A DNA stretch of 24,503 nucleotides from a virus. Its lineage: Duplodnaviria > Heunggongvirae > Uroviricota > Caudoviricetes. The notes under the pieces were generated by a model. The model searched no databases. It was not told the DNA's origin and saw only the letters and a list, made by a program, of their open reading frames with translations. The position numbers were made by a program, and so were the translations under genes. Location: IMG/VR virus record IMGVR_UViG_3300029551_000088; one strand, given 5' to 3'. Shown here piece by piece: positions 1 to 14,304 of the stretch (the first letter of the stretch is position 1; every line of letters begins with the position of its first letter).

Positions 1-265
1 CCTCCAGCGACAACCCGTTAATGTCATCCGGAATTGCAGATCTACCTTGGCTGCTTTGAAAGCACGGACCAAATGGTACCTGTGGATTTTCGGGACGAAA
101 GTGAAAACCGCAAATATGGGTTAGCAGTCTTATCTCCGCTCTTCCATCACCTAGGCTAGAAAGATACTTTGTGATATCAAAGCAGGTAACTGGCAGCTTA
201 CTCTGGATTAAGGGGGATAAATCAATAGTGTTAAGTTCGTCGAGGCTGATATTAATATCGTCCAT
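1..265 (-). CDS. hypothetical protein, partial (start at 265, runs off the left edge of the window); AT-rich
   Basis: Minus-strand ATG (plus 263-265) preceded by AAGGTG Shine-Dalgarno; my manual translation gives at least 88 codons with no stop (MDDINISLDELNTIDLSPLIQSKLPVTCFDITKYLSSLGDGRAEIRLL...). Absent from the supplied ORF track, presumably because it has no stop inside the window. No family recognised. Confidence 0.3.
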   Translation of the reverse strand, partial: MDDINISLDELNTIDLSPLIQSKLPVTCFDITKYLSSLGDGRAEIRLLTHICGFHFRPENPQVPFGPCFQSSQGRSAIPDDINGLSLE

Positions 266-783
266 GTCGTCACCTTGATGATTTGTTAATGCGGGGGCAA
301 CATTAATAAATGTACTTGAGACCGCAATTTGTCGATGGAGCCAACATTTATAACTATGTGCTTCTACCCTCTGAATTTTTACATGTGAATTGCTAGCTTG
401 AATAGCTCTATCATTATATACGTGGCACTAAATTATGGCTGTTTTTCGCTCAAAGCGGACTAGAAGGTTAGCTTGTGTCGGACTTTGCGTATTAAAAGAA
501 GTGCTGGTGGTGACTAGTGGTTGTGCCCCATTTCCACAGAAAAAATCAGAGAAACTATACCCAATAGTTGTATTGAATCACTGACGAGACAGCCTCATAT
601 TCATCAGGACTGGTCTACGTCCAATACAGGAGGTTGTGGTGCTGGTTCTCAAATGTGCGCTGGCTATTACGGCTGTAATGGCGATTTATTGTCTTGCTAT
701 TGTTCTTATGGATCGCCTTTCTGACTGATTTCATATTGGCGAGGTAACGGTAGTTAAGTAGAATGGCTGCGGGTGCTTGAGGC

Positions 784-818
784 TATCTGCCTCGGGCATG
801 AACACCAAAGGCAGATAG
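784..818 (+). promoter_or_regulatory. perfect 9-bp inverted repeat (CTATCTGCC / GGCAGATAG, 17-nt loop) in the leader upstream of the hok-like gene; candidate regulatory RNA structure
   Basis: Stem arms read directly from the sequence at 784-792 and 810-818. Hok-family mRNAs are known to be controlled by extensive leader secondary structure and antisense RNA; assignment here is inference. Confidence 0.3.
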
Positions 819-939
819 AGAAAAGCCCCAGTTAACATTACGCGTCCTGCAAGACGCTTAACATTAATCTGAGGCCAATTTCATGCTAGACACATGTAGG
901 TTAGCCTCTTACGAGCCGAAAGGCAAGGAGAAGCAGGCT

Positions 940-1095
940 ATGAAGCAGCAAAAGGCGATGTTAATCGCCCTGATCGTCATCTGTTTAACCGTCATAGTGA
1001 CGGCACTGGTAACGAGGAAAGACCTCTGCGAGGTACGAATCCGAACCGGCCAGACGGAGGTCGCTGTCTTCACAGCTTACGAACCTGAGGAGTAA
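940..1095 (+). CDS. hokD: Hok/Gef-family type I toxin, small membrane peptide (HokD/RelF-like, 51 aa)
   Basis: Translation MKQQKAMLIALIVICLTVIVTALVTRKDLCEVRIRTGQTEVAVFTAYEPEE matches my recollection of E. coli HokD; AAGGAG Shine-Dalgarno at 925-930. The track ORF from 883 is an in-frame upstream extension. Confidence 0.85.
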   Translation: MKQQKAMLIALIVICLTVIVTALVTRKDLCEVRIRTGQTEVAVFTAYEPEE

Positions 1096-1165
1096 GAGAC
1101 CCGGCGAGGGAGAAATCCCTCGCCACCTCTGATGTGGCAGGCATCCTCAACGCACCCGCACTTAA

Positions 1166-1190
1166 CCCGCTTCGGCGGGTTTTTGTTTTT
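1166..1190 (+). terminator. rho-independent terminator candidate downstream of hokD
   Basis: GC hairpin CCCGC-TTCG-GCGGG followed by a T-rich run (TTTTTGTTTTT). Confidence 0.55.
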
Positions 1191-1311
1191 ATTTTCAACG
1201 CGTTTGAAGATCTGGACGGTGCCGGAATAGAATCAAAAATACTTAAGTAGCGCGCAGGGATAAGAGGGATGGTCCCTTAAAGGGGAGAGCTAATTATCCG
1301 GAAGGATTCTG

Positions 1312-1563
1312 ATGATGAACATCGAAGAACTGCGTAAAATTTTTTGTGAAGATGGCCTCTATGCTGTGTGCGTTGAAAATGGAAATCTTGTTAGTCATTA
1401 CCGCATTATGTGTTTGCGAAAGAATGGGGCTGCGTTAATTAATTTTGTGGATGCTCGGGTCACGGACGGATTTATCTTGCGCGAAGGTGAGTTTGTCACT
1501 TCATTACAGGCATTGAAAGAGATCGGAATAAAAGCTGGCTTTTCTGCTTTTGCAGAAGAATAA
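1312..1563 (+). CDS. rem: Rem-like protein (Qin prophage rem homolog, 83 aa)
   Basis: 83-aa ORF MMNIEELRKIFCEDGLYAVCVENG...; size and position (between hokD and ydfU) match the K-12 Qin gene order; GGAAGGA Shine-Dalgarno upstream. Confidence 0.7.
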   Translation: MMNIEELRKIFCEDGLYAVCVENGNLVSHYRIMCLRKNGAALINFVDARVTDGFILREGEFVTSLQALKEIGIKAGFSAFAEE

Positions 1564-4359: not shown

Positions 4360-4659
4360 AAAAATTCCTTAATACTGATAACTTGGCGCACTATACACAC
4401 GTTCCTGAAGAAAGCTATAGTTTTTTGATGGGGTTGAAGATGGCTGGATGTCTAAAATAAACATTGCTTCATATGTTCAACTATGCGTTAATGATTGCGT
4501 CGGTTTGAAGAACAGACGATATACGAAGTAGTTTACTAAAGCAGTTCTCATTTCAGGTGTTATTCACTTATTCCTTCTTTGAGTCTCTCCAATTAAGTAC
4601 GAAGTCGTTTCTGTTATGCAAACCATTTATGCCGAAAGGCTCAAGTTAAGGAATGTAGA

Positions 4660-4875
4660 ATGTCAAATAAAATGACTGGTTTAGTAAAATGGTTTAACGC
4701 TGATAAAGGTTTCGGCTTTATTTCTCCTGTTGATGGTAGTAAAGATGTGTTTGTGCATTTTTCTGCGATTCAGAATGATAATTATCGAACCTTATTTGAA
4801 GGTCAAAAGGTTACCTTCTCTATAGAGAGTGGTGCTAAAGGTCCTGCAGCAGCAAATGTCATCATTACTGATTAA
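4660..4875 (+). CDS. cspB: cold-shock protein CspB-like (71 aa)
   Basis: [71 protein letters not shown], canonical CspA-family sequence with RNP motifs; long AT-rich 5' leader typical of cold-shock genes. Confidence 0.9.
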
Positions 4876-5158
4876 AATTCATCGCTCGTCTGTATACGAT
4901 AACGAAGAAGGCTGATGCCTGAGTAGAGATACGGACAGAGTAGTGAATATTGGATCTCTTTAATAAAAAGTAAGGAGGTCCAATACATGAAACAATGGCT
5001 AGCATATTTGGCAAAATCTTAATCAGGAAAAGTATGCTAACCATTGTGGTGAAGTGCAGGTTTGCTGCATGAATAGTTTTACAGCAGAAGCTAACTGCTG
5101 GCATGGCAAAACAAAGTGCGTAAGTGGATGACTCCCACAAAAAGCACCACAATCTCAA

Positions 5159-7184: not shown

Positions 7185-7547
7185 GGTAATATTAAATCGG
7201 AACATTTACATCGCGGAATGTAAAATTTAAATAAAAAGGACTCTTCCATGAGCCAAAATTCCTGAAATCTTAAGGGTAAGATAAAAGGTCTTAATCAGAA
7301 TGACACGTTATTATTAATAAATAAAGCTATTCTTTCATTGCTGTGTTTTTCTTTACAAAAGTAATCCTTGCTATGGGTGGTTAATCATGCGTTAATGGTG
7401 TTCTGGTTTGTTACAAATTTATCTGAAGCAGTCATTGTTATAATTTTATTATTTGTACCTCTTGAGATTTCCTTGTTGGTTTTTCTCTCTGATATTTTTT
7501 TTCGGACCATTCTGCCCAAGGGCTAATTTCTTCAAAAGGTAATAATT

Positions 7548-7760
7548 ATGTCTAACAAAATGACTGGTTTAGTGAAATGGTTTAACCCTGAAAAAGGTTT
7601 TGGTTTCATCACGCCGAAAGATGGCAGCAAAGATGTGTTTGTCCATTTCTCAGCAATTCAGAGCAACGATTTCAAAACATTAACTGAGAATCAGGAAGTT
7701 GAATTTGGTATTGAGAACGGACCTAAAGGTCCTGCCGCTGTTCATGTAGTGGCGCTTTGA
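7548..7760 (+). CDS. cspI: cold-shock protein CspI-like (70 aa)
   Basis: [70 protein letters not shown]; long AT-rich 5' leader (7185-7547). Confidence 0.9.
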
Positions 7761-7964
7761 GGTAGACAATATTACAAACCATATTCACTTTAGATGCCCG
7801 TGTTGTCATGGTTCCCAGTATAGAACATCATCTTTTGATGTTTCTGACATGAATCCTTTCGGGGCAAAATGTATCTTTTGTAAATCAATGATGATTACAT
7901 TTGATAATATTTCACAATACTTAAATGCCAGCCGTCTGTCGTTGGATTTAAAAAAGTGAAAATG

Positions 7965-11896: not shown

Positions 11897-14304
<2,408 letters not shown>

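What the first reader, a model, noticed from the sequence alone, without database searches (positions are those of the whole stretch)
636..1190. Hok-family toxin locus without the RelBE partners, plus an upstream small hydrophobic ORF
The hokD-like toxin (940..1095) is followed by a clean terminator and preceded by a perfect 9-bp inverted repeat (784..818). In K-12 Qin, hokD lies directly downstream of relB-relE, but here the 880 bp upstream contain no RelE/RelB-sized ORF. Instead there is a 29-codon ORF (GTG at 639, stop at 726-728, AGGAGG at 628-633) encoding MLVLKCALAITAVMAIYCLAIVLMDRLSD, which looks like a single TM helix. It could be a second membrane-active small protein, an unannotated type I toxin-like peptide, or a chance ORF.
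Basis: partly seen in the sequence, partly recalled or inferred. Interest (0 to 1): 0.5.

Follow-up and report, generated by a model that had tools for sequence, protein, structure and literature searches.

The report
Complete hokD toxin locus plus conserved microprotein gene
This stretch of an E. coli lambda-like prophage holds an ordinary, complete hok/sok toxin-antitoxin locus. Just upstream lies a real but uncharacterised 29-codon gene for a tiny membrane protein, which is conserved in related phages and does not depend on the toxin.

Summary

**hok locus (about 736..1190).** This is a full hok/mok/sok type I toxin-antitoxin locus:
- hok promoter at 736..764;
- mRNA leader from about 771, matching Rfam RF01794 at 116 bits;
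- a 70-codon mok;
- a Sok-like antisense RNA with its own promoter;
- pairing between the 5' and 3' ends of the mRNA, and a terminator.

The missing relBE is not an anomaly. K-12 matches this sequence only from base 926 onwards, so K-12 hokD is the truncated copy. relBE is one of many cargoes found at a variable site upstream; here the cargo is a PDC-S39 candidate defence gene on the minus strand.

**29-codon ORF (639..728).** This is not a chance ORF.
- In 32 distinct DNA alleles, 26 of 44 inferred changes are synonymous, against about 28% expected (p = 2e-5).
- dN/dS is 0.13-0.43.
- The start codon swaps between GTG and ATG, and indels are in frame.
- Some loci carry the ORF without hok, and many hok loci lack the ORF.
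- A 34-aa paralog (Sakai ECs_5710, also called XECs145) was shown by ribosome profiling to be translated in uninduced cells.

I found no family match, no antisense partner and no structured leader, so nothing supports a type I toxin. Its function is unknown. The locus is of modest interest.

The parts
446..638 (+). Conserved non-coding block upstream of the small ORF. It is shared by most type A loci whatever cargo lies to its left. It holds two weak, back-to-back promoter-like sites: plus strand TTGAAT-17-CATATT at 573..601, and minus strand GTGATT-16-TATAGT at 581..554.
   Evidence: The left edge of homology falls at window 435-446 in 46 of 61 distinct contexts. A 1-nt indel and a 14-nt indel show the block is not coding. 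The plus-strand site is kept in 35 of 43 alleles and the minus-strand -10 in 43 of 43. There is no Rfam match and no excess folding energy (z = -0.51 and +1.01). Promoter function is inferred, not shown.
628..633 (+). Shine-Dalgarno sequence AGGAGG of the small ORF, 5 nt before the GTG start.
   Evidence: Read directly from the sequence. It is kept as AGGAGG, GGGAGG or AGGAGA in all contexts compared, including those that share nothing further upstream.
639..728 (+). 29-codon gene for a single-helix hydrophobic microprotein, MLVLKCALAITAVMAIYCLAIVLMDRLSD ('type A'). It is not annotated in RefSeq copies of this locus.
   Evidence: Across 22 type A and 10 type A' DNA alleles, the type A changes split 19 synonymous to 13 non-synonymous and fall 8/4/20 on codon positions 1/2/3. 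Combined with type A', p = 2e-5. dN/dS is 0.13-0.43, including against the 34-aa paralog. In-frame 3-nt deletions and GTG/ATG start swaps occur. The other frames fail the same test. The ORF is present in four isolated phages. The exact peptide is deposited as a 'hypothetical' or 'membrane' protein. The paralog is translated.
736..764 (+). hok promoter, TTGGCG-17-TAGAAT.
   Evidence: Found by the consensus scan at 9 of 12 matches. It sits 7 nt upstream of the first base of the Rfam leader match at 771.
771..1190 (+). Full-length hok (mok-hok) mRNA. It comprises the 5' tac region (768..776), the first hairpin (783..818), the leader, mok, hok, the 3' stem-loop (1103..1124), the fbi box (1152..1160) and the terminator (1164..1181 plus a T run).
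   Evidence: Rfam RF01794 matches 771..945 at 116 bits against a gathering score of 59, over the full model. A perfect 9-nt 5'/3' complement lies at 768..776 / 1152..1160. In the minimum-energy fold the two ends pair: -174.8 kcal/mol, z = -7.95. The terminator was found.
883..1095 (+). mok-like leader ORF of 70 codons, with its SD (GAGG) at 871..874. Here it is in frame with hok.
   Evidence: ORF listed. Relative to the mRNA start, the mok ATG is at +113 and the hok ATG at +170. [quoted passage not shown]
940..1095 (+). hokD toxin gene (51 aa), with its SD (GGAG) at 927..930.
   Evidence: Pfam PF01848 at E = 1.2e-23. PHROG 251 at E = 2.8e-33. Identical to K-12 HokD. Annotated as hokD in RefSeq.
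818..926 (-). Sok-like antisense gene. The promoter is TTGCCT (926..921), a 17-nt spacer, then TAACCT (903..898). The RNA runs from about 891 to about 820. It has a single-stranded 5' tail complementary to the mok start region, then a long hairpin and a U-rich end.
   Evidence: The minus-strand sequence was read directly. The 75-nt RNA folds as a free 10-nt tail plus hairpin: -30.3 kcal/mol, z = -5.27. The promoter was assigned by eye and from my memory of the R1 Sok promoter layout. It falls below the consensus-scan threshold.

Best explanation
The interval holds two separate genetic units at the right-hand edge of a variable cargo site in a Qin-like lambdoid prophage of E. coli.

**1. hok/mok/sok locus (bases about 736..1190).** This is a complete hokD-type type I toxin-antitoxin locus, and I expect it to work as the plasmid R1 system does.
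- The full-length mRNA is locked shut by pairing of its 5' and 3' ends.
- Slow 3' trimming opens the mok ribosome-binding site.
- Translation of mok allows translation of hok.
- The unstable Sok-like antisense RNA, made from the minus strand, pairs with the mok start region and blocks this.

K-12's relB-relE-hokD arrangement is a derivative. There, everything upstream of base 926 was replaced, so the absence of relBE here is the normal state.

**2. Small gene (bases 639..728).** This is a real 29-codon gene for a single-pass inner-membrane microprotein.
- It belongs to a small family confined to Escherichia/Shigella prophages.
- The family includes a 34-aa paralog, ECs_5710 (XECs145) of O157:H7 Sakai.
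- The gene is independent of hok. I infer that it is transcribed with the rightward early genes or from a weak promoter of its own.
- I infer that it is translated at tolerated levels in lysogens and acts in the membrane as an accessory (moron-like) protein, not as a repressed toxin.

**Shown:** the anatomy, the conservation, the coding signature, the independence from hok, and translation of the paralog.
**Inferred:** expression of this particular allele, its membrane location, and any function.
For: **hok locus**
- Rfam sok/hok-leader model at 116 bits, full length, and Pfam HOK_GEF.
- Promoter and terminator.
- 5'/3' complement and closed fold, z = -7.95.
- Sok-like RNA fold, z = -5.27.
- mok and hok spacing matches R1.
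- K-12 identity (99.4%) starts at base 926. The literature states that K-12 hokD lost canonical components by rearrangement.
- No relBE in the 6 kb to the left of identical chromosomes.

**Small ORF**
- Excess of synonymous changes, p = 2e-5; dN/dS 0.13-0.43; third-position bias 20 of 32; the other five frames fail.
- Nine or more DNA alleles encode one identical peptide.
- In-frame deletions and GTG/ATG start swaps.
- SD plus ORF are retained next to six different cargoes.
- Present in phages mEp460_ev081, Tritos, Evi and HannyBb.
- The 540..770 stretch containing it is at least 80% covered in 1730 of 5426 complete E. coli genomes.
- About 10 loci, plus strain 41, have the ORF without hok.
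- Of 80 loci chosen through hok alone, only 13 carry type A and 7 carry type A'.
- Paralog XECs145 in LB: RNA 79 RPKM, ribosome footprints 346 RPKM, ribosome coverage value (RCV) 4.35, coverage 0.99, predicted inner membrane. It is now annotated as ECs_5710, upstream of mok/hok in prophage Sp6.
Against: - There is no expression data for the 29-aa allele itself. The ribosome-profiling evidence is for a paralog only 52% identical. That paralog has several copies per genome, and spontaneous prophage induction could contribute reads.
- One copy (L200) is frameshifted, and four loci keep only the last six codons. The gene is therefore dispensable.
- Most alleles were collected with a pattern that required the C-terminal motif, so only codons 7-16 are free of that bias.
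- The family is young and narrow, so the substitution counts are small.
- Tight physical linkage with hok (101 of 120 pattern hits have hok within 250 nt) could reflect a functional tie that I cannot exclude.
- The Sok promoter was assigned by eye.
Confidence: 0.75

Rival explanations
1. The 29-aa peptide is a second type I toxin with its own RNA antitoxin. For example, a leftward transcript from the conserved minus-strand promoter-like site (581..554) could pair with the start region of the small-ORF mRNA.
For: - The peptide is small, very hydrophobic (mean Kyte-Doolittle hydropathy 1.8-1.95) and sits next to a known type I toxin.
- The minus-strand -10 (TATAGT) is kept in 43 of 43 alleles, back-to-back with the plus-strand site. 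This layout recalls the divergent toxin/sRNA pairs tisB-istR and zorO-orzO (from my own knowledge).
- An 8-nt direct repeat, GTGCTGGT, lies at 501..508 and 639..646. It would make such an RNA complementary to the start codon.
Against: - Several contexts (BL21, HannyBb, SWHEFF_58) keep only the SD and ORF and lack the whole upstream block.
- Five alleles delete 497..510, which includes the repeat.
- An 8-nt repeat is close to what chance would give.
- There is no excess RNA structure on either strand and no Rfam hit.
- There is no toxin family match.
- The paralog is strongly translated in growing cells, unlike a silenced toxin.
Confidence: 0.1
2. The small ORF is functionally tied to hok. Either its peptide modulates Hok in the membrane, or its transcription and translation feed into or insulate the hok promoter, which starts 8 nt after its stop codon.
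For: - Spacing to hok is fixed at 301 nt start-to-start in the window and in four isolated phages.
- hok lies within 250 nt downstream in 101 of 120 family hits.
- No terminator lies between the ORF and hok.
- 52 of 80 hokD loci have some small hydrophobic ORF just upstream, drawn from four unrelated types.
Against: - The ORF occurs without hok in about 10 loci and in strain 41.
- hok occurs without the ORF in most loci, including four where cargo replaced all but six codons.
- In type A' loci a 60-nt palindrome-bearing spacer separates the two, so the spacing is not conserved across the family.
- The linkage is explained well enough by descent of a shared mosaic block.
Confidence: 0.1
3. The ORF is not translated. 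The sequence is conserved as DNA or RNA, for example as an upstream element of the hok promoter, a recombination junction of the cargo site, or part of a longer alternative-frame ORF (521..724, 67 aa).
For: - RefSeq does not annotate it.
- The non-coding block next to it is almost as well conserved.
- The alternative frame is open for 67-107 codons in several alleles.
Against: - The substitutions are frame-specific: 19 synonymous to 13 non-synonymous in the ORF frame, against 5 to 27 in the alternative frame.
- Frame-breaking 1-nt and 14-nt indels interrupt the long alternative ORF upstream.
- An open +2 frame is expected over any run of NTN codons.
- The divergent paralog keeps the peptide (dN/dS 0.18-0.43) while synonymous sites are close to saturation (dS 0.85-1.65).
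- The paralog gives ribosome footprints.
Confidence: 0.05

Closest known systems
hok/mok/sok of plasmid R1 and the chromosomal hok loci of E. coli (Pfam PF01848, Rfam RF01794)
   Same: - A 51-aa Hok toxin and a 70-codon mok leader ORF.
- An mRNA leader of the same length and hairpin layout.
- 5'/3' (tac/fbi) pairing, a 3' stem-loop and a terminator.
- An antisense RNA gene overlapping the mok start.
   Different: - It is carried on a prophage rather than a plasmid.
- mok is in frame with hok here. As I recall, it is out of frame in R1.
- One leader hairpin carries an extra 17-nt insertion.
- Activity has not been tested.
hokD (relF) of the E. coli K-12 Qin prophage, in the relB-relE-hokD operon
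   Same: The HokD protein is identical, and the DNA is 99.4% identical from base 926 through rem and beyond. The downstream genes are the same: rem, ydfU, quuQ, cspF, cspB.
   Different: K-12 lacks bases 736..925: the hok promoter, leader, mok start and sok. It has relBE in their place. The window has the complete locus and a different cargo, a PDC-S39 candidate defence gene on the opposite strand.
ECs_5710 / XECs145 of E. coli O157:H7 Sakai (RefSeq WP_001278450.1 in O104:H4; Huecker et al. 2017, PMC5597208)
   Same: It is a homologous microprotein: ALAVIAVVGVYCLVVFLMDRLGN aligns with ALAITAVMAIYCLAIVLMDRLSD. It has the same strand and the same position just upstream of a hokD-type locus in a lambda-like prophage. 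It is predicted to have a single transmembrane helix.
   Different: - It is 34 aa with an acidic N-terminal extension, MSDDISLAMEG.
- It is 52% identical overall.
- It is preceded by another small transmembrane ORF and followed by an 18-bp palindrome before the hok promoter.
- It is annotated and has ribosome-profiling support, whereas the 29-aa form has neither.
Type I toxins of E. coli other than Hok (TisB, ZorO, Ldr, ShoB, DinQ, Ibs)
   Same: The size (about 20-35 aa), the single hydrophobic helix and the location in a mobile element.
   Different: There is no sequence family match, no identified RNA antitoxin and no long structured 5' leader. The paralog is translated during normal growth.

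Membership tests
[quoted passage not shown] | Toxin of the Hok/Gef protein family | tested here: met
   PF01848 at E = 1.2e-23 and 82.9 bits, against a cut-off of 22. Identical to K-12 HokD.
[quoted passage not shown] | Conserved structured mRNA leader (hok 5' UTR and sok region) | tested here: met
   RF01794 matches 771..945 at 116 bits, against a gathering score of 59, over model positions 1-157.
[quoted passage not shown] | Overlapping mok leader ORF that starts upstream of hok | tested here: met
   70-codon ORF at 883..1095 with its SD at 871..874. The geometry matches R1.
[quoted passage not shown] | Long-range pairing of the mRNA 5' end with a 3' fold-back box (tac/fbi) | tested here: met
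   Perfect 9-nt complement at 768..776 / 1152..1160. The two ends pair in the minimum-energy fold, z = -7.95.
[quoted passage not shown] | Cis-encoded antisense RNA (Sok) with its own promoter, covering the mok translation start | tested here: inconclusive
   TTGCCT-17-TAACCT on the minus strand, and a 75-nt RNA with a free 5' tail, a hairpin and a U-rich end, z = -5.27. The promoter is below the scan threshold, and no transcript data exist for this locus.
[quoted passage not shown] | Killing when the antisense RNA is lost | not testable with these tools
   This needs an experiment.
relBE type II toxin-antitoxin as neighbour of hokD | RelB and RelE genes directly upstream of hokD | tested here: not met
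   There is no such ORF in 1..939, and none in the 6 kb to the left of identical chromosomes. K-12 homology starts only at base 926.
Type I toxin (for the 29-aa ORF) | Small hydrophobic membrane peptide | tested here: met
   29 aa, mean Kyte-Doolittle hydropathy 1.8-1.95. The paralog is predicted to be an inner-membrane protein with one transmembrane helix.
Type I toxin (for the 29-aa ORF) | Cognate antisense or divergent small RNA antitoxin | tested here: inconclusive
   There is only a weak, conserved minus-strand promoter-like site. There is no Rfam hit and no excess structure. The upstream block is absent in several contexts.
Type I toxin (for the 29-aa ORF) | Homology to a described toxin family | tested here: not met
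   No hit in Pfam, NCBIfam, PHROGs or PADLOC. phmmer against 1.84 billion representatives returns only 9 close relatives.
Type I toxin (for the 29-aa ORF) | Toxicity on expression, with translation kept silent in normal growth | not testable with these tools
   Indirect evidence points against it: the paralog XECs145 has a ribosome coverage value of 4.35 in LB.
Protein-coding gene (for the 29-aa ORF) | Purifying selection in this frame, with the start, stop and SD conserved | tested here: met
   26 synonymous of 44 changes against about 28% expected, p = 2e-5. dN/dS is 0.13-0.43. The other frames fail. SD and start are kept.

The most novel reading that the evidence does not exclude
The 29-aa microprotein and its 34-aa paralog are a new class of prophage membrane factor that works together with Hok or with the neighbouring defence-cargo site. 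Three forms of this idea remain open: a protein-level modulator or immunity factor for Hok; a membrane sensor or effector used by whatever defence gene is inserted next to it; or a new toxin controlled by a divergent small RNA from the conserved 554..581 promoter-like site.
Probability: 0.12. Interest if true: 0.6.

Novelty: new member of a known kind. Interest (0 to 1): 0.3.

Why it matters
The hok part adds nothing new beyond a clear statement: the textbook K-12 relBE-hokD arrangement is the broken form, and many wild E. coli prophages carry the intact locus.

The small gene is a useful annotation correction.
- The 540..770 stretch containing it is at least 80% covered in 1730 of 5426 complete E. 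coli genomes (about a third). In every sampled copy RefSeq annotates no gene under the ORF.
- It is present in inducible phages that can be manipulated in the laboratory.
- It sits at the fixed right-hand border of a site where these phages swap defence and toxin-antitoxin cargo.

If it has a membrane function linked to Hok or to the cargo, that would be worth knowing. For now it is one more uncharacterised bacterial microprotein with good evidence of being real.

Tried and rejected
- **The search for related loci** with the peptide alignment found no stretch conserved enough to search with. I used a back-translated DNA pattern instead.
- **Peptide strings in the paper library** gave no relevant hit. 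The supplements of the Enterobacteriaceae microproteome study had none either.
- **Rfam at a permissive threshold on 266..800** gave nothing except the start of the hok leader.
- **Folding of 446..735 on both strands** gave no excess stability, so I dropped the idea of a long structured leader.
- **The 67-aa alternative-frame ORF (521..724) and the 49-aa ORF (435..584)** were rejected. The substitutions are non-synonymous in that frame (5 synonymous to 27 non-synonymous), and 1-nt and 14-nt indels break it.
- **The 9-nt complement between the small ORF (712..720) and hok codons 4-7 (951..959)** was rejected. About one such match is expected by chance in this span, and the ORF side varies between alleles (GATCGCC, GATCACC, GAGCGGC).
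- **The terminator-like hit at 663..682 inside the ORF** was treated as chance.
- **The GTDB scan** gave 36 hits, of which only 4 are real: E. albertii, E. ruysiae, Shigella flexneri, and one probable contaminant contig in a Collinsella bin. The rest are chance matches, in the number expected.
Full report
**What is in the sequence**

The window is an E. coli lambdoid prophage of the Qin type. Bases 400..1320 are 100% identical to many E. coli chromosomes, and some part of that stretch occurs in 4768 of 5426 complete genomes. The only features RefSeq annotates under the match are hokD and rem.

- hok CDS at 940..1095;
- terminator stem at 1164..1181 followed by a T run;
- a perfect 9-bp inverted repeat, with arms at 783..791 and 810..818;
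- AGGAGG at 628..633;
- a 29-codon ORF from GTG 639 to the stop at 726..728.

Bases 1..265 are the start of a minus-strand gene that runs off the left edge.

**The hok locus is complete and canonical**

- HokD matches Pfam HOK_GEF (E = 1.2e-23) and is identical to K-12 HokD.
- Rfam's sok/hok-leader model RF01794 matches 771..945 over its full length, at 116 bits against a gathering score of 59.
- A promoter-like site, TTGGCG-17-TAGAAT, lies at 736..764, correctly placed for a start at about 771.
- A 70-codon mok-like ORF starts at 883. Its ATG is at +113 and the hok ATG at +170. [quoted passage not shown]
- The 5' end (768..776) is perfectly complementary to 1152..1160. The 416-nt mRNA folds with its two ends paired: -174.8 kcal/mol, z = -7.95. 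This is the tac/fbi lock described for R1.
- On the minus strand I read TTGCCT (926..921), a 17-nt spacer and TAACCT (903..898). The 75-nt RNA that would follow has a free 10-nt 5' tail complementary to the mok start, then a long hairpin and a U-rich end: -30.3 kcal/mol, z = -5.27. That is the Sok architecture. The promoter assignment is by eye and from my memory of R1, not a tool result.

**relBE is not missing; K-12 is the truncated form**

A pairwise comparison shows that K-12 matches the window at 99.4% from base 926 onwards, and not at all before it. K-12 hokD therefore keeps only its own ribosome-binding site, coding sequence and 3' end. It lacks the hok promoter, the leader, the mok start and sok. 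Published accounts say that K-12 hokD was inactivated by rearrangement and lost canonical components (PMC12214031).

In chromosomes identical to the window, the genes to the left run in this order:
- a DUF4209 gene on the minus strand;
- a DUF977 gene;
- the replication and immunity genes.

No relBE is present there.

**A variable cargo site lies upstream**

Between the DUF977 gene and hokD, different strains and phages carry different cargo:

| Strain or phage | Cargo |
|---|---|
| K-12 | relBE |
| this window | DUF7380/DUF4209 gene |
| NCTC9966 | DUF5677 gene |
| strain 41 | retron-type HNH gene plus a phospholipase D gene |
| SWHEFF_58 | ABC-three-component genes |
| phage Evi | acetyltransferase |
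| BL21 | nothing |

The window's cargo gene matches PADLOC candidate defence family PDC-S39 at E = 8e-103.

**The 29-codon ORF is a real gene**

*Database status.* It has no match in Pfam, NCBIfam, PHROGs or PADLOC. The exact peptide exists in public collections only as a 'hypothetical' or 'membrane' protein of E. coli.

*Conservation of the translation signals.* The ribosome-binding site and start codon are kept next to every cargo except K-12's. This includes BL21-type loci that share nothing further upstream.
- The start is GTG in most alleles and ATG in one.
- The GTG at 636 is not conserved.
- Two alleles carry in-frame 3-nt deletions.

*Substitution pattern.* From 80 loci chosen through hok and 120 hits to a back-translated pattern, I collected 22 distinct 90-nt type A alleles and 10 alleles of a divergent 34-aa paralog, which I call type A'.
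- At least nine DNA alleles encode one identical peptide.
- The minimum numbers of changes are 19 synonymous to 13 non-synonymous in type A (codon positions 8/4/20) and 7 to 5 in type A' (2/1/9). About 28% synonymous is expected, giving a combined p of 2e-5.
- dN/dS is 0.13-0.43 in every comparison, including type A against type A', where dS is 0.85-1.65.
- The other two forward frames give 9:23 and 5:27.
- The only reverse frame with many synonymous changes is the one whose wobble positions coincide with the ORF's. That frame is not open across the region.

*The longer alternative-frame ORF.* The ORF at 521..724 is rejected by this test, and also by 1-nt and 14-nt indels upstream. Its lack of stop codons is expected over any run of NTN codons.

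*Caveat.* The pattern required the C-terminal motif, so only the N-terminal half is sampled without bias.

*Disrupted copies.* One copy is frameshifted. Four loci retain only the last six codons.

**Distribution**

- The 540..770 stretch containing the ORF is at least 80% covered in 1730 of 5426 complete E. coli genomes. The type A' block is in 672.
- The ORF is present in four isolated phages, always 301 nt upstream of the hok ATG.
- Among GTDB species representatives it occurs only in E. albertii, E. ruysiae and Shigella flexneri, plus one probable contaminant contig. The other 32 pattern hits are chance.
- phmmer against 1.84 billion representative proteins finds only 9 clusters, all at least 83% identical.

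**Independence from hok**

Of the 120 pattern hits, 101 have hok within 250 nt downstream. However, about 10 loci, and strain 41, have the ORF followed by unrelated DNA and no hok.

Conversely, among 80 loci chosen only for encoding an identical HokD, the region just upstream holds:

| Upstream of hok | Loci |
|---|---|
| type A | 13 |
| type A' | 7 |
| unrelated 27-aa hydrophobic ORF (type B) | 17 |
| 72-aa membrane ORF (type C) | 15 |
| six-codon remnant of type A | 4 |
| none of these | 24 |

**Evidence of translation**

The type A' paralog is the 'novel gene' XECs145 of Huecker et al. 2017.

| Condition | RNA (RPKM) | Ribosome footprints (RPKM) | RCV | Coverage |
|---|---|---|---|---|
| LB | 79.1 | 346.1 | 4.35 | 0.99 |
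| BHI | 121.3 | 150.1 | 1.14 | 0.84 |

Footprints were almost absent under cold and osmotic stress. The protein is predicted to be an inner-membrane protein with one transmembrane helix (PMC5597208 supplements).

In the current Sakai record the 105-nt gene ECs_5710 occupies the corresponding position, in prophage Sp6, directly upstream of a mok/hok gene. The paper's coordinates differ by about 144 nt, which I attribute to a different record version.

This shows that a family member is translated in uninduced cultures at a level the cells tolerate. That argues against a silenced toxin. It is not direct evidence for the 29-aa allele.

**The region upstream of the ORF**

Most type A loci share a non-coding block that begins at window 435-446, whatever lies to its left. 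Its best-conserved part (531..602) contains two weak, back-to-back promoter-like sites:
- TTGAAT-17-CATATT on the plus strand (573..601), kept in 35 of 43 alleles;
- GTGATT-16-TATAGT on the minus strand (581..554), with its -10 kept in 43 of 43.

The first could drive the small ORF. The second could drive minus-strand cargo such as the PDC-S39 gene. Both readings are inferences.

The block has no Rfam match and no excess folding energy. It is absent from several contexts that keep the ORF. In type A' loci the ORF follows another small ORF after a 37-nt gap, in an operon-like arrangement.

**Conclusion**

The hok part is a known system in its intact form. The small ORF is a genuine, conserved gene for an uncharacterised single-helix membrane microprotein that RefSeq does not annotate here. 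It belongs to an Escherichia prophage family and is not required by hok, nor does it require hok.

I think it most likely acts as an accessory membrane protein expressed from the prophage. A type I toxin role, or a functional tie to Hok, remains possible but has no positive support.

Noticed in passing
window 1..265 (minus strand); full gene in L001 4079..5866: This is the 5' end of a 595-aa DUF7380/DUF4209 gene that matches PADLOC candidate defence family PDC-S39 (E = 8e-103). The site between the DUF977 gene and the small ORF carries a different cargo in each strain or phage examined: relBE, DUF5677, retron HNH plus PLD, ABC-three-component genes, acetyltransferase, or nothing. It looks like a cargo/defence hotspot of Qin-like prophages.
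   Followed up: partly
window 884..900 (mok codons 2-6, which correspond to the 5' tail of the Sok-like RNA): Among loci that encode an identical HokD protein, this short patch is hypervariable, with at least 10 versions (for example ATGCTAGACACATGTAGG, ATGAACGGCAAATCTAGG, ATGCTCTACACACGTAGG). The flanks are constant. Because it is the antisense recognition tail, this could give different Sok specificities to the several hokD-type copies in one genome (median 2, up to 10).
   Followed up: partly
L087, L096, L118, L140, L189 (IMG/VR contigs): In L087, L118, L140 and L189 the hokD-type locus is split directly after the hok Shine-Dalgarno sequence by an insertion of about 1.3 kb that begins ATGTATGGGTCCACCACATATTG. 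The hok ATG reappears about 1347 nt after the small ORF's stop. L096 shows the same junction, but its contig ends before hok can reappear. This resembles the IS-inactivated hokA, hokC and hokE of K-12.
   Followed up: no
L013, L019, L041 and others (type B); L012, L022 and others (type C): Other hokD loci have unrelated small hydrophobic ORFs at the same upstream position. One is a 27-aa ORF, MTWPEALTTVGIAMAVALVVYSICRWG, whose start overlaps the stop of the preceding gene. The other is a 72-aa two-helix ORF. In all, 52 of 80 hokD loci have some small membrane ORF just upstream.
   Followed up: partly
L020 and other type A' loci, between the 34-aa ORF and the hok promoter: A perfect 18-bp palindrome, ATATGGGAATTCCCATAT, follows the type A' ORF. 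The ORF-plus-palindrome segment is flanked by a direct repeat, GGGTAAAAACG, as if it were a small inserted cassette.
   Followed up: no
window 501..508 and 639..646: The 8-nt direct repeat GTGCTGGT occurs once in the upstream block and once at the start codon of the small ORF. Five alleles delete 497..510, which includes the first copy. It is probably chance.
   Followed up: partly
window 1078..1081: The HokD Tyr47 codon TAC is followed by G (TACG). This corresponds to the site reported to undergo A-to-I editing to Cys, numbered position 46 in PMC12214031.
   Followed up: no
window 1204..1233: A promoter-like site, TTGAAG-18-TAGAAT, lies between the hok terminator and rem (1312..1563).
   Followed up: no
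window 12966..13088 (minus strand); 4499..4891 and 7402..7787 (plus strand): There are Rfam gathering-level matches to the isrC Hfq-binding sRNA (150 bits) and to two cspA-type thermoregulator leaders. The first overlies the 71-codon ORF at 4660..4875, whose position matches cspB in identical chromosomes. The second overlies the 70-codon ORF at 7548..7760.
   Followed up: no
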